A stretch of DNA of 64,000 nucleotides from Anaeromyxobacteraceae bacterium (GTDB lineage Bacteria; Myxococcota; Myxococcia; Myxococcales; Anaeromyxobacteraceae), in the NCBI GenBank assembly GCA_035636195.1, contig DASPZP010000034.1, forward strand, positions 715 to 64,714. Direction: 5' to 3'. Position numbers and translations under genes: made by a program. The stretch's first letter is position 1. Every line of letters starts with the position of its first letter. The notes under the pieces were generated by a model that worked only from the letters and a program-made list of their open reading frames with translations, was not told the DNA's origin and searched no databases. This document shows positions 38,283 to 59,518 of this stretch, piece by piece.

Positions 38283-38397
38283 CCCTACACACGCATGCCA
38301 AACGGACGGGCCACCAGGTGCTCGCCGTGCGGTTCCAGTCGCGATTCGGCGCCCTTACCTATGAGGAGGCAGCCCTCTTTTGGGCAAGGGGTGCGTC

Positions 38398-46463: not shown

Positions 46464-48068
46464 ATGGCCGCAATCCCAAGACGAAAATTCCGACCAGCTC
46501 TGCGCTGGGAACCGCTGCTGCTGGCCACGCTCGGGACGGGCTTCGCGATGGCCGCTGCGGCTCAGGGAGCGGCCGAGCGCCCGCCCGATGGGGGCTCGCC
46601 CGCCCAGCCGGGCATCGCCCGCAGCGGGTCGTTCGACGCCGAGACGGTGGTCGGGCTGGCCCGCGCCCTGGCGAGGTCCCCCTTCGTCCCACCGGTCTCG
46701 ACGGTTCCCGAGTCTCTGGCGAAGCTGCAGTACGATCAGTATCGAGACATTCGCTTCGACCCCGCCGCCAGCCTCTGGGCCCAGCCGGGCCGGAAGTTCC
46801 GTCTGCAGCTCCTCTCGCTCGGGTACCTCTTCACCACCCCGGTCGAGATCGCGATCATCGCGGACGGCAAGGCTCAACACCTCGCCTACCGCGCGGACAT
46901 GTTCACGATTGGTAAGCTCGTCCCGGTGCCCCTGCCGACGCAGGACATCGGCTTCTCGGGATTCCGCCTGCTCTACCCGATCAACGACCCGCGACGCTTC
47001 GACGAGGTGGCGGTCTTCCAGGGCGCGAGCTACTTCCGCTCGCTCGGTCGCGACCAGGCCTACGGCTTGTCCGCGCGCGGGCTCGCCCTCAAGGTCGGAG
47101 ACGCGACGGGCGAGGAGTTCCCGACGTTCCGCGCGTTCTGGATCGAGGAGCCCAAGCCCCGGAGCTCCACCGTGACGCTGCACGCGCTGCTCGACAGCCC
47201 GAGCGTCACGGGAGCTTTCCGCTTCGAGGTCCGCCCTGGCCGTGAAACCACCATGCTCGTCGAGGCGGTGCTCTTTCCCAGGGTCGAGCTGAAGGAGGTG
47301 GGGTTCGCCCCGGGCACCAGCATGTTCATGTTCTCGGCGAGCGGCCGCATCGGCGTCGACGATTTTCGCCCCCAGGTCCACGACTCGGATGGGCTCCTTG
47401 TCCTCAACGGTCGCGGCGAGCACCTGTGGAGACCGCTGGCGAATCCGGCCAAGCTCCAGCTCAGCTCCTTCGCGGATCAGAACCCACGGGGGTTCGGGCT
47501 CATGCAGCGCAACCGGAATCTCGCCGACTACCAGGACTTCGGTGCGCACCACGAGCGCCGCCCGAGCCTGTGGGTCGAGCCGGTTGGCGACTGGGGAGAG
47601 GGTGACGTGATCCTGACCGAGATCCCATCCGACGCGGAGATCCACGACAACGTCGTGGCCTTCTGGCGCCCCCGCAAACCTCTGGCTGCGGGATCCGAGT
47701 TCCACGTTGCGTACCGGCTGTCCTGGGGTGACGAGCCGAGCGCCGCCCAGGACCGCCTCCGCGTGCTGGCGACCGCCTTCGGCCGGGCGGACGTCAAGGC
47801 CCCCACGACGGTGCGGCGGTTCGTCATCGACTACTCGCCGGAGCAGCAGGAGGGCCGCACCGCGCGCGCGCCGCCGAACGCCACCGTGACGGCCTCGGCC
47901 GGCAAGGTCCAGGACGTGGTCGTGAGCGACAACCCGCTCACCCGCGGCTACCGGGTCACCTTCACGCTCGACCCGGAGAAGTCGGAGGTGTGCGAGCTGC
48001 GCCTCGAATTGGCTTTCGACGAAGACCGGTGTGCGGAGGTCTGGCTGTACCGATGGACGAAGCCTTGA
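46464..48068 (+). CDS. opgG: Periplasmic glucan biosynthesis protein OpgG/MdoG family
   Basis: 534 aa. YDQYRDIRF, GFSGFRL, FQGASYFRS, GLSARGLA and EEFPTFRAFWIE are MdoG-family motifs. Confidence 0.9.
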   Translation: MAAIPRRKFRPALRWEPLLLATLGTGFAMAAAAQGAAERPPDGGSPAQPGIARSGSFDAETVVGLARALARSPFVPPVSTVPESLAKLQYDQYRDIRFDPAASLWAQPGRKFRLQLLSLGYLFTTPVEIAIIADGKAQHLAYRADMFTIGKLVPVPLPTQDIGFSGFRLLYPINDPRRFDEVAVFQGASYFRSLGRDQAYGLSARGLALKVGDATGEEFPTFRAFWIEEPKPRSSTVTLHALLDSPSVTGAFRFEVRPGRETTMLVEAVLFPRVELKEVGFAPGTSMFMFSASGRIGVDDFRPQVHDSDGLLVLNGRGEHLWRPLANPAKLQLSSFADQNPRGFGLMQRNRNLADYQDFGAHHERRPSLWVEPVGDWGEGDVILTEIPSDAEIHDNVVAFWRPRKPLAAGSEFHVAYRLSWGDEPSAAQDRLRVLATAFGRADVKAPTTVRRFVIDYSPEQQEGRTARAPPNATVTASAGKVQDVVVSDNPLTRGYRVTFTLDPEKSEVCELRLELAFDEDRCAEVWLYRWTKP

Positions 48069-50221
48069 GGGAGCTCGGTCACAACGCCATCTCGATCGAC
48101 CGGGGCGCGGGGGGCATGCCGCCCGAGGCTCCGAGCCCGATGCCGTCGCAACCCCTCGCGCGGTTCGACGAGCGGTCCCGGCGAACTCTGCGGCGCGCTC
48201 GGCGATTGCGCTCGAGCTTGCGGAGGCTGCTCGTCCTCGGGACGTCCGCGGCGCTGGCCGCGGTCGCGATCGACGAGATGCGGCTCGCCCTGGCGGTCGG
48301 CCACGTGACCGTCCTCTCGATCGTGGCCCTGACGCTCTTCGCCATCAACATCGCCTGGATCAGCATTCCGTTCGTGGTGTCGGTCGTCGGCTTCCTGCGG
48401 GTGGTCGGTCGCCGCGGCAGCGCACCGCCGCACGGCGGCGCGCTGTCGAGCCGCACGGCGCTCCTGATGCCCACCTACAACGAGGATCCCGCCCGCGTCG
48501 CCGCGGCGCTCGACGCGATGGCGCACGACCTCGTGGCCCACGGCGAAGGACACTCGTTCGACGTCTTCCTGCTCAGCGACTCCACGCGCGGCGACATCGC
48601 CCTCGGCGAGCAGGAAGCGGTATGGACCTTGCGCCGCCGTCTCGGCGACGGCATCCGCATCTACTACCGCCGGCGCGCCGAGAACACCGCGCGCAAGCCC
48701 GGCAACATCCGGGACTTCTGCGAGCGCTGGGGGAGAGCCTACGACCACCTGCTGATCCTGGACGCCGACAGCCTGATGGACGGCGCCACCCTCGTGCGCC
48801 TGGCGCAGCGCATGGAGGCGGACCCGGACGCAGGGCTCATCCAGACGTTGCCGCGCCTCCACCAGGGGAAGACGCTGCTGGCCCGGCTGCACCAGTTCGC
48901 CGGGAGGCTCTACGGCTCGATGCTGGGGGAGGGCCTCGCGTGGTGGGCCGGGGACGAGGCCACCTTCTGGGGCCACAACGCCATCCTGCGGACGGAGGCC
49001 TTCATGACCTCCGCCGGTCTCCCGGTGCTCCCGGGCGAGCCGCCCTTCGGCGGACCCATCCTGAGCCACGACTTCGTCGAGGCGGCGCTGATCCGGCGAG
49101 GCGGCTGGAGCGTGTCGATCGCCGCCGACCTGGAGGGTTCGTACGAGGAGTGCCCCTCCTCGCTCGTCGACCAGGCGATCCGCGATCGGCGCTGGTGCCA
49201 GGGCAACCTCCAGCACGTGCGCGTCCTGACGGCGAAGGGCCTGCACTGGGTCAGTCGACTGCACCTCGTCGCCGGCATCATGTCGTACCTGTCATCGCCG
49301 TTCTGGCTGCTGTTCGTCGTGTCCGCGCTGGCGCTCGGCGTCCAGTACGAGTTCGCACGGCAGCAGTACTTCGCCCACACCCCCACGCTCTTTCCCCTCT
49401 GGCCGCGCATCGATCCCGAGCGGGCGATCCGACTCTTCGGCCTCACCATGGGGATCCTGCTCGGCCCCAAGGTGCTGGGGTGGCTCTCGGTCGTCGTGAG
49501 CCCGCGGCGGCTGCGCGAGAGCGGTGGGCTCCTGCTGGTCTCGCTCGGCTTCCTGCTGGAGCTGCTGGTCTCGGCGCTCATCGCTCCCATCCAGGCGCTG
49601 ATTCACTGCGGGTTGGTGGCGGACGTGTTGCGCGGCCGGGACTCGGGCTGGCGGGCGCAGCACCGCGAAGGAGCCAGCTTGCCGTGGTCCCTCGTCCTCC
49701 GCCGCCACCGCTGGCACGCCGTCGCAGGCGTGGCGCTGGCGCTCGTCGCCTACGGCATCTCGTGGCAGATGCTGGCCTGGCTCGCGCCAGCCGTCGTCGG
49801 GATGGTGCTCTCGGCACCCTTGTCCAAGCTCGTCGCCTCCTCCGGCGTGGGCCGCCGCGTCCAGCGCCTCGGCCTCTTGCGAACGCCGGAGGAGACACGG
49901 GTGCCGGCGATCGCCCGGGCCGCCGACGCAGCCTTCCCGCTGTATCGCGAGGCCCTCGCCCGGACGCCGGACCTGGCCGGCGTCGCCGGCGACGCCAAGC
50001 TGCTGGAGCGCCACCTCGCCCTCACCGACCGGGCGCCCCCGCGGCCGAACGGGAACTTCGACGCGGTGGAAGCGCTGGCGGAGAAGAAGATCCGGGTCGC
50101 GCGCAGCAGGAGGGAGGCCGTCGCCAGCCTCACTCCGGAGGAGCGGGCTCGCGTCCAGGCGCTGCCTCCGCTGCTGAGCTTGCTCTCCCGGCTCGTTCCC
50201 AACGAAGAACTCAAGTCGTGA
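48053..50221 (+). CDS. opgH: Glucans biosynthesis glucosyltransferase OpgH/MdoH (GT2)
   Basis: LMPTYNEDP, DADSLM, QTLP and RWCQGNLQH (QxxRW-type) with flanking TM bundles. Overlaps opgG by 16 nt. Confidence 0.9.
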   Translation: MDEALRELGHNAISIDRGAGGMPPEAPSPMPSQPLARFDERSRRTLRRARRLRSSLRRLLVLGTSAALAAVAIDEMRLALAVGHVTVLSIVALTLFAINIAWISIPFVVSVVGFLRVVGRRGSAPPHGGALSSRTALLMPTYNEDPARVAAALDAMAHDLVAHGEGHSFDVFLLSDSTRGDIALGEQEAVWTLRRRLGDGIRIYYRRRAENTARKPGNIRDFCERWGRAYDHLLILDADSLMDGATLVRLAQRMEADPDAGLIQTLPRLHQGKTLLARLHQFAGRLYGSMLGEGLAWWAGDEATFWGHNAILRTEAFMTSAGLPVLPGEPPFGGPILSHDFVEAALIRRGGWSVSIAADLEGSYEECPSSLVDQAIRDRRWCQGNLQHVRVLTAKGLHWVSRLHLVAGIMSYLSSPFWLLFVVSALALGVQYEFARQQYFAHTPTLFPLWPRIDPERAIRLFGLTMGILLGPKVLGWLSVVVSPRRLRESGGLLLVSLGFLLELLVSALIAPIQALIHCGLVADVLRGRDSGWRAQHREGASLPWSLVLRRHRWHAVAGVALALVAYGISWQMLAWLAPAVVGMVLSAPLSKLVASSGVGRRVQRLGLLRTPEETRVPAIARAADAAFPLYREALARTPDLAGVAGDAKLLERHLALTDRAPPRPNGNFDAVEALAEKKIRVARSRREAVASLTPEERARVQALPPLLSLLSRLVPNEELKS

Positions 50222-50364: not shown

Positions 50365-52512
50365 ATGAGCCGTCTCCTCGGATCTCCGGGAACCGCCGAT
50401 GGCCGAAGCATTCCCCACCGACGACGGTGCAGCCGGCCGGCACCTCCCATGAGCACGCCATCCCTGTTCGACGGGCTGTCAGGAATCCGCGGAGCAGTGA
50501 CGGCCGACCTGCGCGGCCTGCGACTGCGCGGGCCCACCGGCGCGCCGGAGCTACCCGGGCACGACGCCCACGCCACGGCAGCCGCCATGTCCGAGCTCAT
50601 GGCCGCCGGCATCGCCGCGGGACTGACGCGCCTCGACCTCGTCTCGATCAAGGGAGACCGTTCGTCCACCGTGACCGCGGTCCGGCCCGACGCGTTCATC
50701 GTGGTGGCGCTCGATCCGGCGAGCCGGACGATCGGGCTCGAGAAGGCGCTGCAGGCCTGGACGCCGGCGGCCAGGTCCAGCTCGCCCGAGCGGAGCCCAG
50801 CGGAGCCGCGTCCGGCGTCGATCGCGCCGGCGCCCCCGTCGCCAGAGGCTCCGCAGGTTGCTCCGGCCCAGCCGGCCGCTGCTTCGGGCGGGCCGGCCCG
50901 CGACGACCCCTGGGCCTGCCTGCGCTGGTCGCTCGTGCGCGGTCAGCTCACCGAGGCGGCCTCGCGGCAGCGGGACCTCGGCGCCGCCGAGGAAACCGGC
51001 CGCCCTGGCGCGGAACCCCTGGAGGCGGCCGAGCGCGACTGCGCGATGCAGGCCCTGCTCGAGGGGATCGGCGGCGTCATGGCCGGCGATGGCGTGGGTG
51101 GCGCGCGCAGCCTGCGTGACGTCGCCAGCCCATCGCAGCGCAACCTCTCCTTCCGCTGGCTCGCGCTCCACTGGACGGCGCGCGCCGCCCTCGAGGGCGG
51201 CGGCTTCGCCGCGGCGCGCCCGCACGTCAAGGAGGCGCTCGCACTCGCCCAGCAGCTCGACGTCGAGACCCGCGCGGTGAGCCAGTGGACCGCCGCCGAG
51301 GTCCTCGCGCGCGGCGGCGATCACGACCGGGCGCTCGCCTGGCTCGGCGAGGCTCGCGCGCGCTTCACGCGGATCGGAGACCGGTGGGGACTCGCGCAGA
51401 CCTGGCTCTGTCAATCCCGGATGCTGTCCTCGCTGCAGCGCGAGGAAGAAGCGGCCGAGGCCGCGCGCCAGGCGTGGGCGGCCGATCCGAGCGGGGACGA
51501 GCCGCCGATCTTCCTGGCGCGCTGCGCCCTGTTGCGCCAGGACGTCCCCGAGGCAGAGCGGATCCTGCGCTCCGTCGCGACTCCGGCGGCGGACCGCGTT
51601 CGGACGCTCATCGCGGCGCTGCGCCAAGGCTTGGTGAACCAGGCCGATGCGAGCGAGTTCCTGCGCGAGCACGCCGCGCCTCCCACCGCCGCTGCCATCG
51701 GCGCGCTGGAACGGATCGCCGGAACGTCGCCCCGCTTCCTGCAGGCGCGCGAGTCGCTGGCCTGGATGCTGCTCAAGGTGGGGCGCTACGCCGAGTCGAG
51801 CACCATCTTTCGCGGGCTCCTGGAGCAACCGCTGACCCCCGGGGATCGATCGTCGGTGATGCTCGGGCTCGGCTGCATCTCCAACGCGCAGCAGGCCGGG
51901 GCGGCGCAGGCGGCGCCTCCCCCGCTGCCACGGACGCCCGGCCCGGCCGCACCGGCGGGGCGGCGGCCCGCCGAAGGGTCCGGCGCCAACGCGATGTTCT
52001 CCGGGCAGCTCAGCATCTTCGCGCTGCCCGACCTGCTCGAGTTCCTGCGGAGCGCGCGGCGCACGGGGCTCCTCGTGTGCAGCTCGGCGGCCGGGATGGG
52101 CAAGCTCCGCCTCCGCGATGGCCGCATCACGAGCGCCGTCTCGCCGGGGGGCACTCCCGGCGTCGGCCAGCTCCTCCTCCACGCCCGGAAGGTCTCGCCG
52201 CTCGCGCTCACGGCCATCGCCCCGAAGGACCTGGCGGAGCAGCCCGACCACGTGGTCGGCCAGCGGCTCGTCCGCGAGGGCCTGGTGGAGGCCGCCGACG
52301 TGCACGCGGCGCTGGAGCGCCGGGTCGAGCTGACCGTGCGGGAGCTCCTCGCGTGGAAGGACGGGGAGTTCGCCTTCAGCCGCGACGGCGAGGGCGAGCC
52401 TGAGCGGACCGAGCTCTCGGTGGAGGTGGATCCGCAGGTGGTGCTGCTCAACTTCTTCAAGGAGCAGGACGAGTACGGCCGCGCTGGCGCGGCCGCCGGA
52501 GCGCAGCGCTAG
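50365..52512 (+). CDS. Roadblock/LC7-like N-domain + TPR-like helical region + C-terminal DUF4388 (PATAN) domain protein
   Basis: N-terminus LFDGLSGIRGAVTADLRG...VSIKGDRSSTVTAVRPDAFIVVALDP is Roadblock-like. C-terminus FSGQLSIFALPDLLEFLRSARRTGLLVCSS is the DUF4388 signature. The start may be ATG 50449. Confidence 0.75.
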   Translation: MSRLLGSPGTADGRSIPHRRRCSRPAPPMSTPSLFDGLSGIRGAVTADLRGLRLRGPTGAPELPGHDAHATAAAMSELMAAGIAAGLTRLDLVSIKGDRSSTVTAVRPDAFIVVALDPASRTIGLEKALQAWTPAARSSSPERSPAEPRPASIAPAPPSPEAPQVAPAQPAAASGGPARDDPWACLRWSLVRGQLTEAASRQRDLGAAEETGRPGAEPLEAAERDCAMQALLEGIGGVMAGDGVGGARSLRDVASPSQRNLSFRWLALHWTARAALEGGGFAAARPHVKEALALAQQLDVETRAVSQWTAAEVLARGGDHDRALAWLGEARARFTRIGDRWGLAQTWLCQSRMLSSLQREEEAAEAARQAWAADPSGDEPPIFLARCALLRQDVPEAERILRSVATPAADRVRTLIAALRQGLVNQADASEFLREHAAPPTAAAIGALERIAGTSPRFLQARESLAWMLLKVGRYAESSTIFRGLLEQPLTPGDRSSVMLGLGCISNAQQAGAAQAAPPPLPRTPGPAAPAGRRPAEGSGANAMFSGQLSIFALPDLLEFLRSARRTGLLVCSSAAGMGKLRLRDGRITSAVSPGGTPGVGQLLLHARKVSPLALTAIAPKDLAEQPDHVVGQRLVREGLVEAADVHAALERRVELTVRELLAWKDGEFAFSRDGEGEPERTELSVEVDPQVVLLNFFKEQDEYGRAGAAAGAQR

Positions 52513-52524
52513 CCGCTCCCTGCC

Positions 52525-54000
52525 ATGAACCGCTCCGCATCCTTCCCGCTGCCCGGCGCACCGTCCACCGCGGACCTGACCCACCTGGTCGGCGTGAAGC
52601 TCGGCAATTACCGGCTGGAGCGCTTGATCGGGCGCGGCAGGATGGGCGTCGTGTACCTCGCCAACGACGTGGCGCTGCTGCGGCCGACCGCGGTCAAGGT
52701 GCTGTCGTGGAGCGCCGCCGAGGCCCAGGGCCAGGACCCCGTGCAGTGGTTCCTCGCGGAGGCGCGGCTCGTCGCGCGGATCAACCATCCGCGCGTCGTG
52801 CAGATCTATGGGGCCGCGCGTCACGGCGGCTACTGCTACATCGCGATGGAGTACGTGCCCGGCCAGTCGGTCGAGGCGGCGCTCGCCGAGTGCGGGACCA
52901 TGCCGCCGGAGCGCGCGACCGACGTCCTGTTGCAGGCGGCGTCCGCGTTGCACGCGGCGCACCGCTCGGGCGTGGTCCACCGCGACGTGAAGCCGGCGAA
53001 CCTCCTCATCGGCAGCGACGGCGTCACCAAGCTCGGGGACTTCGGGATGGCGTTCGGCGCGGCGGGCGCTCCCGTCGGGCAAGCGCGCGTGCGGGCCGGG
53101 ACGCCCTATTACACCGCGCCGGAGGTCTGGCGGGGAGAGCCCGCCACCGCCGCCTCGGACATCTATTCGCTGGGTGCGACCTACTTCGAGCTCCTCACCG
53201 GGCGCCCGCCGTTTCCTGGCACGGACGTCGCGGCGGTCGAGCAGGCGCACCTGCGCGCGCCGGTCCCCGACCCGCGCGAGGTCGCGCCGGGCCTCCCCGC
53301 CTCGTGCGCTGCGCTGCTCCAGCGCGCGCTGGCGAAGTCGCCGCGGGAGCGCCACGCCTCGGCGCAGCTGCTGGCGCAGGACGGGCGGCAGGTGCTGCAG
53401 GAGCTCACGGCGGCAGGCGAGTCCGTGGCGGGGCCTCGGACACGCACGCCGCCTTCGCCGCCGGCGCGCCGGCCCCTCTCTCCCGTCGAGGGGCTCCTGG
53501 CGAGCGAGCTCGGCTTCGCTCACCGTCCGTTCTTCACGGCCGACCCGTCGGCGTGCGCGCCGCTCGCTCGCGAGCAGGTCCCGGCCTACGTCCGGAGCTG
53601 GGTCGAGGCGACGCTCGCGCCGCACGCGGCGCCCATCGTCTTCTCTCCCGACGCGCTCCGCTTGATGGCGCTCCGCTCCGAAGGCGCGCTCCCCCAGCTC
53701 GACTGCATCGCCGAGAACATGCTGGTGCTCGCCGCCGCTGGACATTGCCGCACGCTCACGTCCTGGCACGCCTGGGCGGCCTCGGACCGGGAGCGCTGGT
53801 CGGTGCAGCCGCCGCCCACCGCGCTGCCGACGCGCCCCGCCCACTGGCCCCCACCGGACGTGATCGCCGTCCTCGATGCGTGCCGCCGCGGCGCTGGCGT
53901 CCCGCCCTGGCCGCGGGCGAGCCGCGCGGTGGACGCCGCGGTCGCGGTGGTCGGTAGCCCGCAGATACCTTCTGTAGCGACGAGACGAGGTGACCCGTGA
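52525..54000 (+). CDS. Ser/Thr protein kinase (Hanks type) with an uncharacterised C-terminal domain
   Basis: GRGRMGVVY...AVK, HRDVKPANLL, DFG and APE motifs. The C-terminal 200 aa resemble the tail of ExeA-like AAA proteins but show no Walker motifs. Confidence 0.9.
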   Translation: MNRSASFPLPGAPSTADLTHLVGVKLGNYRLERLIGRGRMGVVYLANDVALLRPTAVKVLSWSAAEAQGQDPVQWFLAEARLVARINHPRVVQIYGAARHGGYCYIAMEYVPGQSVEAALAECGTMPPERATDVLLQAASALHAAHRSGVVHRDVKPANLLIGSDGVTKLGDFGMAFGAAGAPVGQARVRAGTPYYTAPEVWRGEPATAASDIYSLGATYFELLTGRPPFPGTDVAAVEQAHLRAPVPDPREVAPGLPASCAALLQRALAKSPRERHASAQLLAQDGRQVLQELTAAGESVAGPRTRTPPSPPARRPLSPVEGLLASELGFAHRPFFTADPSACAPLAREQVPAYVRSWVEATLAPHAAPIVFSPDALRLMALRSEGALPQLDCIAENMLVLAAAGHCRTLTSWHAWAASDRERWSVQPPPTALPTRPAHWPPPDVIAVLDACRRGAGVPPWPRASRAVDAAVAVVGSPQIPSVATRRGDP

Positions 54001-54049
54001 TGCCGGCGAGCGCTTCGCAGCGGTCCAGCGTGTTCCAGGGAGCGAGCCC

Positions 54050-54373
54050 ATGTTCGATCTGGCGTTGATAGGCGGAGTACCGGGGGTGAGGAGCGCCGTG
54101 CTCGGCGACCTCTCGGGTGGATACCTCGACGCGCTCCGCGAGCCGGACGGCGAGGGCGTCGCCGCGGTGATGGGCTTCCTCTCCAGCGCCATGACCCAGG
54201 CCGGCGACCAGCTGGGGTTGGGCGACCTGCGGCGGATCTCGTTTGCCGGCGAGGGGACCGCCTGCGTGGTCGCCTTCGCAGGAGCTTCCGTGATGGCCGC
54301 CCGGATCGAGCCCGCCCGGTCCCTCGCCGCTGTCGAGAAGGCCCTCGAGGCCTCTCTGCTTGGGAAGGGATGA
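54050..54373 (+). CDS. Roadblock/LC7 (MglB-like) domain protein
   Basis: About 107 aa. LIGGVPGVRSAVLGDLSGGYLDAL...ISFAGEGTACVVAFAGASVMAARIEP has the Roadblock alpha-beta pattern. ATGA overlap with the next gene. Confidence 0.7.
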   Translation: MFDLALIGGVPGVRSAVLGDLSGGYLDALREPDGEGVAAVMGFLSSAMTQAGDQLGLGDLRRISFAGEGTACVVAFAGASVMAARIEPARSLAAVEKALEASLLGKG

Positions 54374-55116
54374 TCATGGAAGCCATCCTTCAGGAGCTGC
54401 TGGACCTGGCCGGCGTGGGCGCGGCCATGGTGTTCGACGGCACCGGTCGGCTCGCCGGACACCGGGGACGCGCCATCTACGACCGCACCCTCTGTGAGCA
54501 GGTGAGCGGCACCCTGGTGAAGGCGATCGACTCGATCCAGCTGCAGCAGGCCGACTGGGACTCGGTCACCGCGCAGTTCGCCGACGGCAAGCTCATCCTG
54601 CGCAATCTGGGCAGCCCCGGCGGGCGCGCGCACACGCTGGCCGTGGTCGCGGACGCGACCCTGAACTCGTCCTTCGCCACGGTCGCCATCCGGGTCGCCG
54701 CCAACAAGGTGCGCAAGTCGATCGTCGAAGGCGGAACCCCAGCGCCGACGGCCGGCGCCGTCCCCGCCGCCGCGCCAGCCGGGGCACCTTCTGCGTCCTC
54801 TCCTCAGCTTCCCGGCGAGTCGAAGCCCGCGCTGGGGAGCTCGGGCCTCAGCTGGTCGAAGGTGTCGAGCGTGGGCTTCTCGACCATCGCCGTGGCGGAC
54901 CCCGCCTCGTCGGCGTTCCTCACCAGCTGCGCCAAGAAGCTCGCCCGCCACGTGGGCCCGATCGCGAAGGTCTACGTGGAGGAGGCGGTGCGGCGAGTGT
55001 CCCCGGACGCACCGTTCTCCGTGTCGATCGGCGGCCGGCTGGTCCAGGACCTCGCCGGCCAGATCGAGGACGCCGACGACCGAGCCCAGTTCCTCGCCTC
55101 AATCGAGAAGGTCTAG
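54370..55116 (+). CDS. Roadblock/LC7 domain protein with Pro/Ala linker and a small C-terminal domain
   Basis: N-terminus LLDLAGVGAAMVFDGTGRLAG...AQFADGKLILRNLG...LAVVADATLN is Roadblock-like. C-terminus LARHVGPIAKVYVEEAVRRV is unassigned. Confidence 0.7.
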   Translation: MIMEAILQELLDLAGVGAAMVFDGTGRLAGHRGRAIYDRTLCEQVSGTLVKAIDSIQLQQADWDSVTAQFADGKLILRNLGSPGGRAHTLAVVADATLNSSFATVAIRVAANKVRKSIVEGGTPAPTAGAVPAAAPAGAPSASSPQLPGESKPALGSSGLSWSKVSSVGFSTIAVADPASSAFLTSCAKKLARHVGPIAKVYVEEAVRRVSPDAPFSVSIGGRLVQDLAGQIEDADDRAQFLASIEKV

Positions 55117-55147
55117 ACCCACGGTCTCGCAGTCCAGGAGGTAGACG

Positions 55148-56065
55148 ATGTCCATCGTTCTCGCGGTCCGGAAGAGCCTCAGCGCGAAGACCGCGCTGAC
55201 GCTCGCGGTCGTCCTGCTCGTGCTGACGGCGATCGCCGCCAGCGTCATCACCACCCAGCAAACGCGACAGATGGAGGAGCTGACGCTGGAGAAGGCCCGC
55301 GTCGCCGCGGCCATCGGCGCCCGCCAGTACGGCGACGTCTTCGACAACTCGATCGACGCCGGCGTGCTGACCGTCAACGACGTCTTCGACAGGAGCTACG
55401 TCGAGATCAAGGGGTACAGCTGGGGCGGGAAGCCCAAGTTCCACACCCGGTACGACCAGGTCACCGACCGGGCCATCCTCGTCTTCCAGGACAAGTTCCT
55501 CGAGTACGAGGACTTCGTCTTCGCGGTGGGCGTCGACGAGAACGGCTACCTGCCCACGCACAACACCCAGTTCCAGAAGCCCCTGACCGGCGCTCCGGAG
55601 CAGGACCTCGCGGGCAACCGGACGAAGCGCATGTTCAACGATCCGGTCGGGCTGGCGGCCGCGAAGAACGTCGAGCCGAGCTTCCTCCAGGTCTACCGGC
55701 GGGACACCGGCGAGACGATGTGGGACGTCTCCTCGCCGATCTTCGTGAAGGGGAAGCACTGGGGCGGGTTCCGGGTGGGGGTGTCGATGGAGCGGATCGA
55801 GGCGCGCAAGCGGGCCCTCATCCTCTCGCTCATCGCCACCTTCGGCTGCTTCGTCCTGGTGACGATCGTCACCATGTTCGTGGTGGTCCAGCGGGCGATG
55901 AAGCCGGTCGTCGCGCTCACCCTGGCGGCGGAGCAGATCGGCCTGGGCGAGGAGCTCGAGACCCCCATCAAGTCGGAAGCGGTCGACGAGATCGGCCAGT
56001 TGACCAAGACGATCGATCGCCTGCGCGTCAGCATGAAGGCGGCGATGAGCCGCCTCAGCGCCTAG
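55148..56065 (+). CDS. Membrane sensor: TM - periplasmic PDC/Cache-like domain - TM - HAMP, with no output domain
   Basis: Two TM spans flank about 190 aa (GYLPTHN, NRTKRMFND, YRRDTGE, HWGGFRVG). A HAMP segment (VVVQRAMKPVVALT...IGQLTKTIDRL) follows, and the protein ends about 15 aa later. Confidence 0.8.
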   Translation: MSIVLAVRKSLSAKTALTLAVVLLVLTAIAASVITTQQTRQMEELTLEKARVAAAIGARQYGDVFDNSIDAGVLTVNDVFDRSYVEIKGYSWGGKPKFHTRYDQVTDRAILVFQDKFLEYEDFVFAVGVDENGYLPTHNTQFQKPLTGAPEQDLAGNRTKRMFNDPVGLAAAKNVEPSFLQVYRRDTGETMWDVSSPIFVKGKHWGGFRVGVSMERIEARKRALILSLIATFGCFVLVTIVTMFVVVQRAMKPVVALTLAAEQIGLGEELETPIKSEAVDEIGQLTKTIDRLRVSMKAAMSRLSA

Positions 56066-56085
56066 CTCGAGAAGGAGATCCCACC

Positions 56086-56721
56086 ATGACCCGTCCATTC
56101 CACAGCTGCTTTGCGATCCTGGCGCTGGCGTCCGTCGCTCTCGCTCCCGTCGCCGCTCGAGCACAGGCGAGGGCGCCCGCGATCATCCCGGCCGACCTGC
56201 CTGCGCAGGAGCGGGAGATGCTGGTACTGGCCCACGACTTCGCCAGGCGCTGCGCCGACGCCCTGGAGAAATGGATCGCCAGCAAGGAGGTCACCGAGGA
56301 GAAGCTCTTCAGCTCCCTGTACTATCCGATGCCGAAGACGGACCCACCGAAGTACACCACCGACTGGGACCGGCTCTCGGACCGCGACATCCTCCCCATC
56401 GAGGAGAGCATCCTCGCCAGGTCGCCCACGATCCTCTTCACGGTCATGGTGGACAAGTTCGGGTACCTCCCGACGCACAACCAGCGCTACTCGCTGCCGC
56501 TCACCGGTAACGCCGCCGCCGACCTGGTCAACAACCGCACCAAGCGGATCTTCAACGACCGGACCGGGCTGGCGGCGGCGAAGAGCCAGGCGCCCTTCCT
56601 GATCCAGCGTTACCAGCGCGACACCGGGGAGACGCTGGTGGACCTCTCGGTGCCGCTGTTCGTGCGCGGCGCGCACTGGGGTGCCGTGCGCATCGGATAC
56701 CGGCCCCTCGACGCCCGCTAG
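56086..56721 (+). CDS. Periplasmic stand-alone paralog of the preceding sensor domain
   Basis: Signal peptide, then the same motifs in the same order (GYLPTHN, NRTKRIFND, YQRDTGE, HWGAVRIGY). No TM or HAMP segment. Confidence 0.75.
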   Translation: MTRPFHSCFAILALASVALAPVAARAQARAPAIIPADLPAQEREMLVLAHDFARRCADALEKWIASKEVTEEKLFSSLYYPMPKTDPPKYTTDWDRLSDRDILPIEESILARSPTILFTVMVDKFGYLPTHNQRYSLPLTGNAAADLVNNRTKRIFNDRTGLAAAKSQAPFLIQRYQRDTGETLVDLSVPLFVRGAHWGAVRIGYRPLDAR

Positions 56722-56759: not shown

Positions 56760-56796
56760 GGTCCCTCCCTGTGCAAAGATGGCACCGGGAGGGACC
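56760..56796 (+). promoter_or_regulatory. 10-bp stem hairpin sequestering the Shine-Dalgarno of the DctP-like gene
   Basis: GGTCCCTCCC (56760-56769) pairs perfectly with GGGAGGGACC (56787-56796). The latter contains the GGAGG directly before ATG 56797. The loop is 17 nt. Confidence 0.4.
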
Positions 56797-57852
56797 ATGG
56801 TCGGTCTGTGGACGAGCCTCGGCATCGCTTCGGCGCTGGTCCTGCCCCTGGCAGCGCTGGCCGAAGCTGCGCCCATCGTGATCAAGTTCAGTCACGTGGT
56901 GGCGACGGAGACGCCGAAGGGCCAGGCCGCGCTCCGCTTCAAGCAGCTCGCGGAGGAGGCCACCCAGGGCCGGGTCAGGGTCGAGGTCTATCCGAACAGC
57001 GAGCTCTACAAGGACAAGGAGGAGCTGGAGGCGCTGCAGCTCGGCGCGGTCCAGATGCTCGCGCCCTCGCTCGCCAAGTTCGCCCCGCTGGGCGTGAAGG
57101 AGTTCGAGCTCTTCGACCTCCCGTTCATCTTCGACAGCTACGAGCAGCTGCACAAGATCACGCAGGGACCCATCGGCCAGAAGCTGCTCGACAAGCTCGA
57201 GCCCAAGGGCATCCAGGGCCTCGCGTACTGGGACAACGGCTTCAAGGTGATGAGCTCCAACAAGCCGCTGAGGACGCCCGCCGACTTCAAGGGTCAGCAG
57301 CTGCGCATCCAGTCCTCGCGGGTGCTCGACACGCAGATGCGCTCGATGGGAGCCATCCCGCAGGTCATGTCCTTCTCGGAGGTCTACCAGGCGCTGCAGG
57401 CCGGGGTCGTGGATGGCACCGAGAATCCACCGTCGAACCTCTACACGCAGCGGATGTACGAGGTGCAGAAGTACGTGACCCTCTCCAACCACGGCTATCT
57501 CGGCTACGCCGTCATCGTGAACAAGTCGTTCTGGAGCGGCTTGCCGGCAGGCATCCGCGGCCAGCTGGAACGCGCCCTGAAGGCCGCCACCGCCTACGCC
57601 AACGAGATCGCGAAGAAGGACAACGAGGACGCCTTGGCCGCCGTGAAGAGCTCCGGCAAGTGCCAGTTCGTCACGCTGACCGCCGAGGAGCGCGCGGCCT
57701 GGAAGGCGACCATGGATCGGGCCCACCAGGAGCACGTCGGCCGGATCGGCGCAGCGCTGATCGGCGAGGTCTACCAGGCGACCGGGTACCAGCCGAGCTC
57801 CAGCGCTCCAGCCATGCCGAGTGGACCCGGGAGCTTGCGCCTGGGCGAATGA
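56797..57852 (+). CDS. dctP: TRAP-type DctP-family C4-dicarboxylate-binding periplasmic protein (orphan, no DctQM)
   Basis: Signal peptide, then IKFSHVVATETPKGQAALRFK..., YWDNGFK, RIQSSRV and ENPPSN are typical of the DctP family. No TRAP membrane components occur in the window. Confidence 0.85.
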   Translation: MVGLWTSLGIASALVLPLAALAEAAPIVIKFSHVVATETPKGQAALRFKQLAEEATQGRVRVEVYPNSELYKDKEELEALQLGAVQMLAPSLAKFAPLGVKEFELFDLPFIFDSYEQLHKITQGPIGQKLLDKLEPKGIQGLAYWDNGFKVMSSNKPLRTPADFKGQQLRIQSSRVLDTQMRSMGAIPQVMSFSEVYQALQAGVVDGTENPPSNLYTQRMYEVQKYVTLSNHGYLGYAVIVNKSFWSGLPAGIRGQLERALKAATAYANEIAKKDNEDALAAVKSSGKCQFVTLTAEERAAWKATMDRAHQEHVGRIGAALIGEVYQATGYQPSSSAPAMPSGPGSLRLGE

Positions 57853-58042
57853 CGCAGCGCGCGAGCGGGGTCGGTCGGCGCACGTGTGGTTTTCCACAAT
57901 AGCGACCTCCGCCTGGAACCGGGCAGAGTGGTTCTCGCTGCCATCCAACGGGACCGAGAGACCAGCGACACGCGTTCCACGTGTCGCGCGCCGCCGACAT
58001 CTTGCCAATTTCACGAACCGTGAACCTTTTGAGGGAGCGCCC

Positions 58043-59431
58043 ATGAAGCGCAACGTCGTCGAGGATGAGGCCGCCCGGAAGCTCGCGGCGGGCGAGGACG
58101 CAGAGCTGCCCATACACGTCGTGGACGCCGCGGACGAGAAGCCCCTGTCCGTCGGGGGGCGCCTGAAGCGCTCCGCGTCGAAGCTGTACAACTGGGTGGC
58201 GCTCATGATCGTGCTGGGCGCCTTGCTGGGGCATTTCTTCCCTGCGGCCGGCGTGGCCATGCAGCCCGTCGCCGACGGGTTCATCAACCTCATCAAGATG
58301 CTCATCCCGGCGGTGATCCTGTGCACCGTGGTGCTGGGGATCGCGGGCTCGGGCAGCATCAAGAAGGCCGGCCGCGTGGGCGGCAAGGCCATCCTCTACT
58401 TCGAGGTCGTCAGCACCTTCGCCCTGGTGGTCGGCCTGGGCATGGGCAACTTCTTCGGGCCGGGGAGGAGCTTCCACGCCGATCCTTCGAAGCTCGATCC
58501 CAAGCTGGTGGCGAACTACGTCACGCAAGCGCAGCACATGACGGTCAAGGATCACATCCTCAAGATCATCCCGAAGACCCTCTTCAGTGCGTTCACGGAG
58601 GGCGACATCCTCCAGGTGCTGCTGATCTCGGTGCTCCTGGGGTTTGCTCTGGCGCGCCTGCCCGAAAAGTACAAGACGCCGCTCATGGGCTTCATGGACA
58701 ACGTGAGCAAGATGCTGTTCGGCGTCATGCGGATCATCCTGTACGCCGCGCCGATCGGCGCCGGCGCCGCCATCGCCTTCACCATCGGCAAGTTCGGACT
58801 GAAGTCGTTGCTGCCGATGGGGGAGCTCATCCTGCTCTTCTATGCGACGTGCGCCGTGTTCGTCCTGGTCGTGCTGGGGGCCATCGCTGCGGCGTCCGGG
58901 TTCAACATCCTGAAGCTGCTGCGTTACATCAAGAGCGAGCTGTTGCTGGTCCTCGCGACCAGCTCCTCCGAGTCGGCGCTCATCCCGCTGATGGAGAAGC
59001 TGGAGCGCATCGGCCTCTCGAAGTCGGTCGTCGGCCTGGTCGTGCCGACGGGCTATTCGTTCAACCTGGATGGCACCAACATCTACATGACGCTCGCCTC
59101 GCTCTTCATCGCCCAGGCGCTGGGCATCGAGCTCACGCTGGGTCAGCAACTGGGCATCCTGGTGGTGGCCATGATCACGAGCAAGGGCGCGACCGGAGTC
59201 ACGGGCTCCGGATTCATCACGCTGGCCGCGACCCTGGCGGTGGTCCCGGGCATCCCGGTGGCCGGCATGGCGCTCATCCTCGGGATCGACAAGTTCATGT
59301 CCGAGGCGCGAGCGATCACCAACCACATCGGAAACTGCGTGGCGGCGGTGGTGCTCGCGAGCTGGGAAGGCGAGATCGACTGGCCCAAGTTCCGCGAGGC
59401 GATGAAGAAGGGCAGCCAGGCGTCGATCTGA
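58043..59431 (+). CDS. dctA: C4-dicarboxylate/cation symporter DctA (DAACS family)
   Basis: FINLIKMLI, SSSE(S)ALIP, TGYSFNLDGT and AMITSKGATGVTGSGF are DAACS signatures. About 462 aa from ATG 58043. Confidence 0.9.
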   Translation: MKRNVVEDEAARKLAAGEDAELPIHVVDAADEKPLSVGGRLKRSASKLYNWVALMIVLGALLGHFFPAAGVAMQPVADGFINLIKMLIPAVILCTVVLGIAGSGSIKKAGRVGGKAILYFEVVSTFALVVGLGMGNFFGPGRSFHADPSKLDPKLVANYVTQAQHMTVKDHILKIIPKTLFSAFTEGDILQVLLISVLLGFALARLPEKYKTPLMGFMDNVSKMLFGVMRIILYAAPIGAGAAIAFTIGKFGLKSLLPMGELILLFYATCAVFVLVVLGAIAAASGFNILKLLRYIKSELLLVLATSSSESALIPLMEKLERIGLSKSVVGLVVPTGYSFNLDGTNIYMTLASLFIAQALGIELTLGQQLGILVVAMITSKGATGVTGSGFITLAATLAVVPGIPVAGMALILGIDKFMSEARAITNHIGNCVAAVVLASWEGEIDWPKFREAMKKGSQASI

Positions 59432-59518
59432 AGCGCCCGTGCTCCGCCGTGGAGGAATGGGGGCCGCCAGCGGCGCCATTCCTCCACTCGGGCCGGGGCA
59501 CCTGACCGTCGCACCCCG

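What the first reader, a model, noticed from the sequence alone, without database searches (positions are those of the whole stretch)
50365..56721. Six-gene signalling operon: three Roadblock/LC7 domains, PATAN (DUF4388), Ser/Thr kinase and an output-less HAMP sensor, with no small GTPase
Six co-directional genes have junctions ranging from a 4-nt overlap to a 49-nt gap:
1. Roadblock-like N-domain + TPR-like region + DUF4388/PATAN
2. Hanks-type Ser/Thr kinase with an unassigned C-terminal domain
3. stand-alone Roadblock protein
4. Roadblock + Pro/Ala linker + small C-terminal domain
5. TM-sensor-TM-HAMP protein with no output
6. periplasmic paralog of that sensor domain

In established systems Roadblock/LC7 proteins act as dimeric platforms, GAPs or GEFs for Ras-like GTPases. 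Examples are MglB with MglA, the Streptomyces conservons (sensor kinase-like protein, Roadblock, DUF742 and GTPase) and eukaryotic Ragulator.

Here three Roadblock paralogs are linked to a membrane HAMP sensor as in conservons. The GTPase and DUF742 slots, however, are occupied by a eukaryotic-like kinase and a PATAN protein. This looks like an undescribed variant of Roadblock-based signalling. Periplasmic sensing may be relayed to Ser/Thr phosphorylation, or to a GTPase encoded in trans.
Basis: partly seen in the sequence, partly recalled or inferred. Interest (0 to 1): 0.72.

Follow-up and report, generated by a model that had tools for sequence, protein, structure and literature searches.

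The report
Roadblock–PATAN–kinase sensor cassette without GTPase
A real, tightly conserved six-gene signalling cassette of soil Anaeromyxobacter-type bacteria links a membrane sensor lacking an output domain to three Roadblock domains, a PATAN protein and a Ser/Thr kinase. No small GTPase sits beside it in about 40 genomes, so it is an undescribed variant of Roadblock-based signalling rather than a broken copy of a known system.

Summary
**Observation: confirmed.** Six co-directional genes lie at 50449-56721, with junctions from -4 to +49 nt.

- All three Roadblock assignments hold: by profile for G3 and the G1 N-terminus, by structure for G4.
- The PATAN domain, an intact Hanks kinase, a TM-sensor-TM-HAMP protein that ends after HAMP, and its secreted paralog are all there.
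- The cassette keeps its gene order in about 35 Anaeromyxobacteraceae genomes and contigs despite unrelated flanks. It recurs, rearranged, in Polyangiaceae MAGs. No small GTPase accompanies it anywhere.

- The kinase's "unassigned" C-terminus is the remnant of an AAA_22 P-loop domain. Orthologs (about 635 aa) carry that domain, mostly with a degenerate Walker A. The window's lineage deleted its core.
- The kinase is dispensable in three lineages. The invariant core is PATAN + two Roadblocks + a HAMP-only sensor.
- G4's C-terminus is DUF8082, a small helical module often fused to Ser/Thr kinases elsewhere.
- The conservon parallel is analogy, not membership.

**Best reading (inferred):** the periplasmic sensor pair signals through HAMP to a Roadblock platform, which couples to the PATAN output and the kinase. 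Action on a GTPase encoded elsewhere is the main rival.

**Novelty:** new variant of a known kind; moderately interesting.

The parts
50449..52512 (+). G1: Roadblock (N-terminal, about aa 1-105) - Pro/Ala linker - TPR region - PATAN/DUF4388 (C-terminal). The longest ORF starts at 50365, but the conserved start is 50449.
   Evidence: Pfam DUF4388 E=3.7e-21 and TPR_19 E=3.2e-10. N-terminal profile vs PDB Roadblock 7f8m E=1.7e-4 and LC7b 0.0096. Paralog of G3 by hhalign, probability 99.3%. Start inferred from orthologs.
52000..52473 (+). PATAN (DUF4388) domain of G1
   Evidence: PF14332 matches residues 546-703 of the 715-aa ORF, covering 1-120 of 122 profile positions.
52525..54000 (+). G2: Hanks-type Ser/Thr kinase (aa 29-285) + linker + remnant (lid/C-terminal part) of an AAA_22 domain whose P-loop core is deleted in this lineage.
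   Evidence: Pkinase E=1.9e-49. Motifs GRGRMG, AVK, HRDVKPAN, DFG and APE are present. Orthologs of about 635 aa carry PF13401 AAA_22. Walker A/B alignment and the window's gap. A close relative at 88% G4 identity still has 659 aa with AAA_22; relatives at 92% have 491 aa.
54050..54373 (+). G3: stand-alone Roadblock/LC7 protein, 107 aa
   Evidence: Robl_LC7 22.8 bits. Ortholog profile vs PDB Roadblock 7f8m E=2.6e-5 and 7yh1 0.031. Conserved start from alignment.
54370..55116 (+). G4: Roadblock domain (aa 1-120) - disordered Pro/Ala/Ser linker (121-169) - DUF8082 three-helix domain (about 170-248). Start overlaps the G3 stop by 4 nt.
   Evidence: AF2 mean pLDDT 73.6, with domains at 78-90. Foldseek MglB, MglC, LAMTOR and Asgard Roadblock hits, probability 1.00. 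Precomputed PF26309 DUF8082.
55148..56065 (+). G5: TM1 (aa 10-39) - periplasmic PDC/Cache-like domain (about 40-220) - TM2 (221-255) - HAMP (246-295), ending at residue 305. No output domain.
   Evidence: HAMP E=4.3e-6. Hydropathy. AF2 pLDDT 70.6 and Foldseek hits to WalK, KinD, CitA and DcuS sensor domains. Best PDB sequence match of the HAMP is Af1503, E=1.3e-6.
56086..56721 (+). G6: secreted (signal peptide, aa 4-27) stand-alone paralog of the G5 periplasmic domain
   Evidence: BLASTP G5 vs G6: 43% identity over 155 aa, E=4e-42, sharing the motifs GYLPTHN, NRTKR.FND and RDTGE. RBS and start. No Pfam family.

Best explanation
This is a conserved, self-contained transmembrane signalling cassette of Anaeromyxobacteraceae, with rearranged relatives in other Myxococcota. 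Its invariant core is a PATAN protein, two Roadblock proteins and a HAMP-only receptor.

Proposed mechanism, with shown and inferred steps marked:
1. G5 is an inner-membrane receptor with a PDC/Cache-like periplasmic domain. Its secreted paralog G6 shares the same conserved, mostly basic motifs (shown). G6 probably acts as a co-sensor or partner for the same ligand (inferred).
2. G5 has nothing after its HAMP (shown), so the HAMP itself must be read by another protein. Kinase-less variants swap the sensor for dCache_1 but keep the same HAMP tail, DEIGxL...RLRxSMKAAMxR (shown). This points to the HAMP as the interface with the cytoplasmic partners (inferred).
3. The readers are a Roadblock platform: G3 and G4, whose genes are translationally coupled and which likely form a heterodimer, plus the G3-paralogous Roadblock domain of G1 (inferred).
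4. The platform carries two outputs. [quoted passage not shown] The other is the Hanks kinase G2, probably engaged through G4's DUF8082, because that module is fused directly to Ser/Thr kinases in other bacteria (inferred from domain fusions).

On this reading the Roadblock domains work as a kinase/effector scaffold, like MglC or eukaryotic MP1-p14, rather than as a GAP for an adjacent GTPase.
For: - **Co-conservation.** Order G1-G6 is kept in about 35 loci with unrelated flanks. Polyangiaceae MAGs keep all six with G1-G2 divergent from G3-G6.
- **Operon-like junctions.** Medians are 1 nt for G3-G4, 23 for G5-G6, 21 for G1-G2 and 55 for G4-G5.
- **No GTPase.** There is no Walker A in the window and no conserved small P-loop ORF in any locus.
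- **Roadblock folds** are verified.
- **HAMP-only receptor.** The Af1503-like HAMP is the last domain. The sensor is swapped with the HAMP tail retained in L036 and L038.
- **DUF8082-kinase link.** 15 of 83 representative DUF8082 proteins carry Pkinase, for example the Bryobacterales kinase in L043.
- **PATAN as an output** that binds PilB1/PilC: 10.1101/2021.06.11.447907.
- **The kinase is catalytically intact**.
- **G5 and G6 are the most conserved members**, at 65-78% identity against 42-57% for G1. This fits a conserved ligand.
Against: - No interaction or phosphorylation was tested; every contact is inferred from gene linkage and domain logic.
- DUF8082 persists in the three kinase-less variants, so it cannot depend only on the cis kinase.
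- DUF8082 is also fused to TIR, CHAT, FHA and EAD domains, so it may be a general adaptor.
- The sensor fold call rests on a medium-confidence model (pLDDT 70.6, with the conserved loops below 50) and modest TM-scores.
- Anaeromyxobacter genomes do encode orphan MglA-family GTPases, one of them beside a PATAN gene. A GTPase encoded elsewhere remains possible.
- No link to pili or motility is visible in any neighbourhood.
Confidence: 0.45

Rival explanations
1. The cassette is the sensory and regulatory half of a small-GTPase system whose GTPase is encoded elsewhere. G3/G4 and G1-N would act as GAP, GEF or platform for an orphan MglA-family protein (SofG-like). The PATAN and kinase would tune that switch in response to the periplasmic signal.
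For: - G4's structural neighbours are MglB itself.
- Roadblock proteins classically regulate or host small GTPases (PMC4316618).
- Sequenced Anaeromyxobacter strains each encode, besides the mglBA pair, an orphan MglA homolog (230-271 aa) and a 335-356 aa MglA homolog next to a PATAN gene.
- PATAN-MglA and PATAN-MglB neighbourhoods are documented.
Against: - No GTPase lies within 10 kb in any of about 40 loci spanning two families. [quoted passage not shown]
- MglC shows that Roadblock proteins can be pure adaptors.
- The genomes that carry this cassette could not be searched as wholes, so co-occurrence with an orphan GTPase is untested.
Confidence: 0.3
2. The Roadblock proteins regulate the P-loop (AAA_22) domain fused to the kinase. 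This would be the 'NTPase regulator' role originally proposed for the superfamily, with nucleotide state gating kinase activity.
For: - Orthologous kinases carry an AAA_22 domain above Pfam's cut-off in L019, L039 and L041.
- That domain is the only NTPase-like module ever present in the cassette.
- Koonin and Aravind's NTPase-regulation hypothesis is cited in PMC4316618.
Against: - The Walker A lysine is Arg, Ala, His or Gly in all but one of 25 aligned orthologs that keep the region (only L019 has GKT).
- The P-loop core is deleted outright in the window, in L014, and in L044/L045.
- Three lineages lack the kinase-AAA protein altogether yet keep the Roadblocks.
Confidence: 0.1
3. It is an anti-phage or conflict system, with a kinase plus STAND-like NTPase plus adaptor domains.
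For: - DUF8082 co-occurs with TIR, CHAT, EAD1 and EAD7 in a few proteins.
- The kinase matches PADLOC kinase models such as PD-T4-6.
- The cassette sits in different genomic contexts even between close relatives.
Against: - The PADLOC hits cover only the generic kinase domain. The other five proteins hit nothing.
- Dedicated periplasmic sensor proteins, a PATAN domain and high sequence conservation across a whole family fit housekeeping signalling rather than defence.
- There is no effector (nuclease, TIR, protease) in the cassette.
Confidence: 0.03

Closest known systems
MglA/MglB polarity module and the Roadblock adaptor MglC (Myxococcus xanthus, Thermus thermophilus)
   Same: Same Roadblock/LC7 fold: G4's best structural matches are MglB 3t1r, 1j3w, 6izw and 6hjm, and MglC 7ct3 also matches. 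Same phylum. Several Roadblock paralogs cooperate. MglC is a precedent for a Roadblock protein that acts as an adaptor rather than a GAP.
   Different: There is no MglA-family GTPase in or near the cassette in any genome examined. The Roadblock domains are fused to TPR-PATAN (G1) and DUF8082 (G4). The cassette is coupled to a membrane HAMP receptor and a Hanks kinase.
Actinobacterial conservons / AGPS (CvnA histidine kinase with HAMP, CvnB Roadblock, CvnC DUF742, CvnD GTPase)
   Same: A membrane protein with TM segments and HAMP is encoded together with Roadblock protein(s) in a conserved multi-gene signalling operon (PMC4316618).
   Different: G5 stops after HAMP, with no HisKA or HATPase domain. 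There is no DUF742 and no GTPase. Extra components are present: PATAN, a Ser/Thr kinase with AAA_22, DUF8082 and a periplasmic paralog. The phylum is different. The resemblance is architectural analogy, not homology of the set.
Eukaryotic MP1-p14 (LAMTOR3/2) and the Ragulator scaffold
   Same: Several Roadblock domains are assembled into a membrane-associated platform linked to Ser/Thr kinase signalling. LAMTOR chains are among G4's structural matches (5y3a, 5x6u, 6ehp, 1veu).
   Different: There is no detectable sequence relationship beyond the fold. Ragulator also hosts Rag GTPases. A scaffold role for G3/G4/G1 is inferred, not shown.
PatA-type PATAN regulators (PixG, PixE, PatA) of cyanobacteria
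   Same: Same PATAN/DUF4388 domain, which is the output module and binds PilB1/PilC in Synechocystis. PATAN genes are known to neighbour mglB-like and mglA genes.
   Different: G1 has no receiver domain. Its input side is a Roadblock domain plus TPR, so control would come from protein-protein contact or Ser/Thr phosphorylation rather than His-Asp phosphotransfer.
Af1503 of Archaeoglobus fulgidus (receptor with TM-sensor-TM-HAMP and no output domain)
   Same: Same architecture. The G5 HAMP profile's best solved-structure match is the Af1503 HAMP, E=1.3e-6.
   Different: No partners are known for Af1503. Here the HAMP-only receptor has a fixed set of co-conserved cytoplasmic partners, which offers a handle on what such receptors signal to.
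MasABK of M. xanthus (membrane protein MasA, lipoprotein MasB, kinase MasK, adjacent to mglBA)
   Same: [quoted passage not shown] They are tied genetically to the Mgl system and type IV pili (PMC3546991).
   Different: MasA (505 aa) and MasB (68 kDa lipoprotein) differ in size from G5 and G6. No HAMP or Roadblock is mentioned in the paper. Homology was not tested here because no sequences were available.

Membership tests
Roadblock/LC7 superfamily | alpha-beta-beta-alpha-beta-beta-beta-alpha fold of about 100-120 aa, with sequence or structure similarity to solved members | tested here: met
   G3 profile vs 7f8m E=2.6e-5. G1-N profile vs 7f8m E=1.7e-4 and LC7b 0.0096. G1-N vs G3 hhalign probability 99.3%. 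G4 model topology and Foldseek MglB hits, probability 1.00, target TM-score 0.7-0.8. G4-N is not supported by sequence alone (hhalign vs G3 probability 10.6%).
MglB-type GAP coupled to an MglA GTPase | An MglA-family GTPase gene within about four genes of the Roadblock gene (Wuichet and Sogaard-Andersen coupling criterion) | tested here: not met
   No GxxxxGK[ST] in the 64-kb window. No conserved small P-loop ORF within +/-10 kb in 38 related loci.
MglB-type GAP coupled to an MglA GTPase | GAP activity or an MglA-binding surface | not testable with these tools
   Needs biochemistry or complex modelling with the genome's MglA paralogs, which could not be retrieved.
Conservon / AGPS | CvnA-type sensor with a histidine-kinase core (HisKA/HATPase) after the HAMP | tested here: not met
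   G5 ends at residue 305, about 10 residues after HAMP. It gives only HAMP-region matches to histidine-kinase models.
Conservon / AGPS | CvnC (DUF742) and CvnD (small GTPase) genes in the operon | tested here: not met
   No DUF742 or GTPase family hit in any of the six proteins. No P-loop ORF.
PATAN (DUF4388, PF14332) domain proteins | Match to PF14332 above the gathering score | tested here: met
   75.8 bits against a cut-off of 25. Orthologs score 74-81 bits.
PatA-type response regulators | PATAN fused to a receiver (REC) domain | tested here: not met
   No Response_reg hit in G1.
Hanks-type Ser/Thr protein kinases | Pkinase domain with Gly-rich loop, catalytic Lys, HRDxKxxN, DFG and APE | tested here: met
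   168.9 bits. All motifs found.
AAA_22 (PF13401) P-loop NTPase domain on the kinase | Walker A and Walker B core | tested here: not met
   Absent from the window's G2, where the alignment shows a gap. Present above cut-off in orthologs L019, L039 and L041, but with non-canonical Walker A in nearly all.
HAMP-only receptors (Af1503 type) | TM - extracytoplasmic domain - TM - HAMP, with no further domain | tested here: met
   Two TM segments. HAMP 27.4 bits. Af1503 HAMP is the best PDB match. The C-terminus follows directly after HAMP.
Cache/PDC extracytoplasmic sensor domains | PDC fold (long N-terminal helix plus a five-stranded sheet with flanking helices), or a match to a Cache family profile | tested here: inconclusive
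   No Pfam Cache hit for G5 or G6. The AF2 model (pLDDT 70.6) gives Foldseek hits to the WalK, KinD, CitA and DcuS sensor domains at E 1e-3 to 1e-7, with target TM-scores up to 0.6.
DUF8082 (PF26309) | Match to the Pfam family | tested here: met
   Precomputed PF26309 hit on the window's own G4 and all 120 listed homologs. The family is missing from the local hmmscan copy.

The most novel reading that the evidence does not exclude
Roadblock domains here form a GTPase-independent scaffold. The scaffold reads the conformational state of an output-less HAMP receptor and relays it to a Hanks kinase and a PATAN effector. That would be a bacterial counterpart of the MP1-p14/Ragulator kinase scaffold. 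It would also give the first defined downstream partners for a HAMP-only (Af1503-type) receptor.
Probability: 0.3. Interest if true: 0.75.

Novelty: new variant of a known kind. Interest (0 to 1): 0.58.

Why it matters
Roadblock/LC7 proteins are usually interpreted as partners of small GTPases. Yet nearly half of bacterial MglB homologs are 'orphans' (328 of 749 in PMC4316618), and very few have been studied. This cassette is a clean, strongly conserved case in which three Roadblock domains are locked to a receptor, a kinase and a PATAN output, with no GTPase nearby.

If the scaffold reading is right, it would:
- extend Roadblock function in bacteria to kinase and effector scaffolding, as in eukaryotic MP1-p14;
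- explain how a receptor ending in a bare HAMP domain can signal;
- give DUF8082 and PATAN testable partners.

Cultured hosts exist (A. oryzae, A. terrae, A. soli), so it is experimentally tractable. If instead a GTPase encoded elsewhere is the target, the cassette would identify the sensory input of an orphan MglA paralog.

Tried and rejected
- **Small GTPase search.** I looked for a Walker A in all six frames of the window (none strict, two relaxed and irrelevant) and for P-loop ORFs in 43 loci. The only hits were unrelated ABC/ParA/EF-G-type genes and one kinase-internal P-loop. That last hit led to the AAA_22 finding.
- **NCBIfam** gave no specific names for G1 and G3-G6.
- **Sequence-only tests of the G4 N-domain** failed: PDB profile search found nothing and hhalign against G3 gave probability 10.6%. 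Structure prediction was needed.
- **Sensor-domain family.** No Pfam family matched G5 or G6. A PDB profile search matched only the HAMP.
- **Promoter and terminator scans** were uninformative in this 70% GC DNA.
- **Defence-system reading** was rejected after PADLOC returned only generic kinase hits.
- **Literature searches** for DUF8082/PF26309 returned nothing. Searches combining PATAN, Roadblock and kinase found no description of this cassette.
- **MasABK** was considered as a possible homolog. Sizes and descriptions differ, and no sequences were available to test it.


Full report
**1. What is in the sequence**

The region lies in 70-76% GC DNA. Third-position GC of 0.84-0.97 picks out six co-directional genes, and independent gene calls on related contigs agree.

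Refined coordinates:
- G1: 50449-52512. Ortholog alignments and the 689-aa call in L044 place the start at M29 of the 50365 ORF.
- G2: 52525-54000.
- G3: 54050-54373, 107 aa. The upstream GTG extension is not conserved.
- G4: 54370-55116.
- G5: 55148-56065.
- G6: 56086-56721, 211 aa, preceded by GAAGGAG.

Across orthologous loci the median junctions are 1 nt (G3-G4), 23 (G5-G6), 21 (G1-G2) and 55 (G4-G5). This fits one operon with G3 and G4 translationally coupled, but transcription itself was not tested. The promoter and terminator scan was uninformative.

**2. Domain checks**

- **G1.** A strong PATAN/DUF4388 domain at the C-terminus (E=3.7e-21) and a TPR region. Alone, the N-terminus hits Robl_LC7 only at E=0.044. 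A profile of 19 orthologs, however, matches solved Roadblock proteins (7f8m at 1.7e-4, dynein LC7b at 0.0096, further dynein roadblock light chains and CvnB5 only at E 0.1-1). The N-terminus is also clearly paralogous to G3 (hhalign probability 99.3%, E=4e-20).
- **G3.** Scores 22.8 bits against Robl_LC7 (cut-off 23). Its profile matches 7f8m at 2.6e-5.
- **G4.** The N-domain is not recognisable by sequence. An AlphaFold2 model (pLDDT 73.6, with domain blocks at 78-90) has the Roadblock alpha-beta-beta-alpha-beta-beta-beta-alpha topology. Foldseek returns MglB from Thermus and Myxococcus, a Streptomyces Roadblock domain, Asgard Roadblocks, LAMTOR subunits and MglC at probability 1.00, with target TM-scores mostly 0.7-0.8. 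After a disordered Pro/Ala/Ser linker comes a three-helix domain annotated in the database as Pfam DUF8082.
- **G2.** A Hanks kinase with all catalytic motifs.
- **G5.** Two TM segments, a periplasmic domain, a HAMP, and nothing after it. The best solved-structure match of its HAMP is Af1503, the classic output-less HAMP receptor (E=1.3e-6). The G5 model (pLDDT 70.6) gives a PDC/Cache-like periplasmic fold resembling the WalK, KinD, CitA and DcuS sensor domains. This is a fold-level suggestion only, because no Cache profile matches.
- **G6.** Has a signal peptide and is 43% identical to the G5 periplasmic domain (E=4e-42). The two share the motifs GYLPTHN, NRTKRxFND and RDTGE.

**3. Whose genome, and is the set conserved?**

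G4 homologs are annotated as Anaeromyxobacter or Anaeromyxobacteraceae. A pattern scan of one genome per species (185,579 species) with a G4 alignment gave 38 loci. All but one are Myxococcota, mostly Anaeromyxobacteraceae, including the cultured A. oryzae, A. terrae and A. soli. Because the scan used two peptide patterns, it may under-count.

A tblastn search of all six proteins against the loci shows G1-G2-G3-G4-G5-G6 in the same order wherever the contig spans them. The flanks are unrelated:
- MdoG/MdoH and DctP in the window and its 92% relatives;
- TraB and a TPR protein in A. oryzae;
- a phosphoribosyltransferase and hemerythrin in L003;
- a cNMP-binding oxidoreductase and a cytochrome in an 88% relative.

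Variants:
- Two Polyangiaceae MAGs keep all six genes but place G1-G2 divergently upstream of G3-G6.
- L036 and L038 have G1-G3-G4 followed by a different HAMP-only receptor. It has a dCache_1 sensor but the same HAMP tail, DEIGxL...RLRxSMKAAMxR, and these loci have no kinase.
- L042 has a short 283-aa PATAN protein followed by G3-G6, with no kinase.
- Extra G5-G6 pairs occur in L008 (tandem) and L009 (5 kb away).

The invariant core is thus PATAN + two Roadblock proteins + a HAMP-only receptor. The kinase is a frequent but dispensable member, and G5-G6 behaves as a duplicable two-gene unit.

**4. The GTPase question**

No strict Walker A exists anywhere in the 64-kb window in any frame. No small P-loop ORF recurs within +/-10 kb in any locus.

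One P-loop hit inside the L019 kinase led to a correction. Orthologous kinases are about 635 aa and carry an AAA_22 domain between the kinase and the conserved C-terminus (PF13401: 49.8 bits in L019, 40.2 in L041, 35.3 in L039, 15.5 in A. oryzae). Its Walker A lysine is Arg, Ala, His or Gly in all aligned orthologs except L019. In the window, in its 92% relatives L044/L045 and in L014, the P-loop core is deleted and only the lid/C-terminal part remains. An 88% relative still has the 659-aa form.

The 'unassigned C-terminal domain' is therefore a decayed NTPase module. The cassette once had an NTPase-like part, but that part is not a small GTPase and appears non-catalytic in most lineages.

**5. 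DUF8082**

A search of 1.84 billion cluster representatives with G4's C-terminal 99 residues found 133 relatives. Most have the G4 architecture. Of 83 scanned, 15 carry a Pkinase domain, and single cases carry TIR, CHAT, FHA, EAD1/EAD7 or a cyclase domain. One example is a Bryobacterales kinase ending in ...LYVGPIAKVYVRRAVKK... (L043).

This domain-fusion pattern links G4 functionally to Ser/Thr kinases. The persistence of DUF8082 in the kinase-less variants tempers that inference.

**6. Mechanism**

*Shown:* the components, their topology, their paralogies, their co-conservation, and the absence of a cis GTPase.

*Inferred:*
- G5, helped by its secreted paralog G6, senses a periplasmic ligand. 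The conserved His/Arg/Lys-rich motifs hint at an anion.
- The bare HAMP is read by a Roadblock platform made of G3-G4 and G1's Roadblock domain.
- The platform positions or controls G1's TPR-PATAN arm and the kinase.

PATAN is the output module of cyanobacterial PatA-type regulators and binds PilB1 and PilC, so control of type IV pili or a related ATPase is a reasonable guess. Nothing in the neighbourhoods supports it directly.

The main rival is action on a GTPase encoded elsewhere. Sequenced Anaeromyxobacter strains encode, besides mglBA, an orphan MglA homolog and a longer MglA homolog next to a PATAN gene. I could not search the cassette-bearing genomes as wholes.

Two weaker rivals remain. 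Regulation of the fused AAA_22 domain is undermined by its decay and loss. A defence role is not supported by PADLOC beyond generic kinase hits.

**7. Comparison with known systems**

The cassette works like a Roadblock-based membrane signalling module. It is not a member of the Mgl GAP-GTPase pair class (coupling criterion not met). It is not a conservon (no histidine-kinase core, DUF742 or GTPase). It is not a PatA-type regulator (no REC).

PATAN-MglB-like gene linkage and numerous orphan MglB homologs (328 of 749) were already noted. What appears undescribed is this fixed combination with a HAMP-only receptor, a periplasmic sensor paralog, DUF8082 and a kinase-AAA_22 protein. Literature searches found nothing on it.

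The closest functional analogies are:
- MglC, a Roadblock adaptor;
- MP1-p14/Ragulator, a Roadblock scaffold for kinases;
- Af1503, a HAMP-only receptor;
- M. xanthus MasABK, an envelope proteins plus kinase operon beside mglBA.

**8. Verdict**

I rate it a new variant of a known kind. It is of moderate interest (0.58), is experimentally tractable in cultured Anaeromyxobacter species, and has a clear decisive test: does an orphan GTPase track the cassette, and do the Roadblocks bind the HAMP or a GTPase?

Noticed in passing
window 24068-27427 (-), 44845-46335 (-), 46464-48068 (+), 47990-50221 (+): A beta-1,2-glucan / osmoregulated periplasmic glucan gene set surrounds the cassette: a SOGP-type 1,2-beta-oligoglucan phosphorylase, a 'Glycoamylase' PF10091 protein, OpgG (MdoG) and an OpgH-like GT2. 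The link to the cassette is not conserved in other genomes.
   Followed up: partly
window 56779-61528 (+): Directly downstream lie a DctP-type TRAP solute-binding protein, an SDF dicarboxylate symporter and a dCache-PAS histidine kinase, followed by a GerE response regulator in relative L044. This looks like a C4-dicarboxylate sensing and uptake unit. It is adjacent only in the window's own lineage.
   Followed up: partly
window 36249-43002 (+): A TamA-like Omp85/POTRA protein followed by a 1540-aa TamB/AsmA-like protein: an outer-membrane translocation and assembly module pair.
   Followed up: no
whole window: There is no canonical Walker A (GxxxxGK[ST]) in any of the six frames over 64 kb. 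Only two relaxed [AG]xxxxGK[ST] matches occur, at 25692 (+) and 2088 (-). This is unusual for a bacterial stretch of this length.
   Followed up: partly
L044/L045 vs L046/L047: Relatives at 92% and 88% G4 identity carry the cassette in completely different genomic contexts. They also differ by the roughly 170-aa deletion of the kinase's AAA_22 core. This implies recent relocation of the whole cassette and recent domain loss.
   Followed up: partly
L008 3241-6544; L009 16783-18371: Extra copies of the G5-G6 pair occur: two in tandem in L008, and one 5 kb away next to unrelated genes in L009. In L008 a DUF6976 gene is inserted between G4 and the first pair.
   Followed up: partly
P0241-P0372 (DUF8082 relatives): DUF8082 occurs up to four times per protein in some 600-800-aa proteins. 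It is occasionally fused to TIR, CHAT, FHA, EAD1/EAD7 and cyclase domains. This suggests a general adaptor or interaction module.
   Followed up: partly
window 5519-8166 (-): A RACo-type reductive activator of corrinoid proteins (Fer2 + RACo middle and C-terminal domains) sits next to further small genes. It may be part of a corrinoid methyltransferase system.
   Followed up: no
L030 1353-2759: In one Anaeromyxobacter MAG the G4 ortholog runs on to 468 aa, with an unassigned C-terminal extension of about 200 aa. No other cassette gene was detected on the 3.5-kb contig.
   Followed up: no
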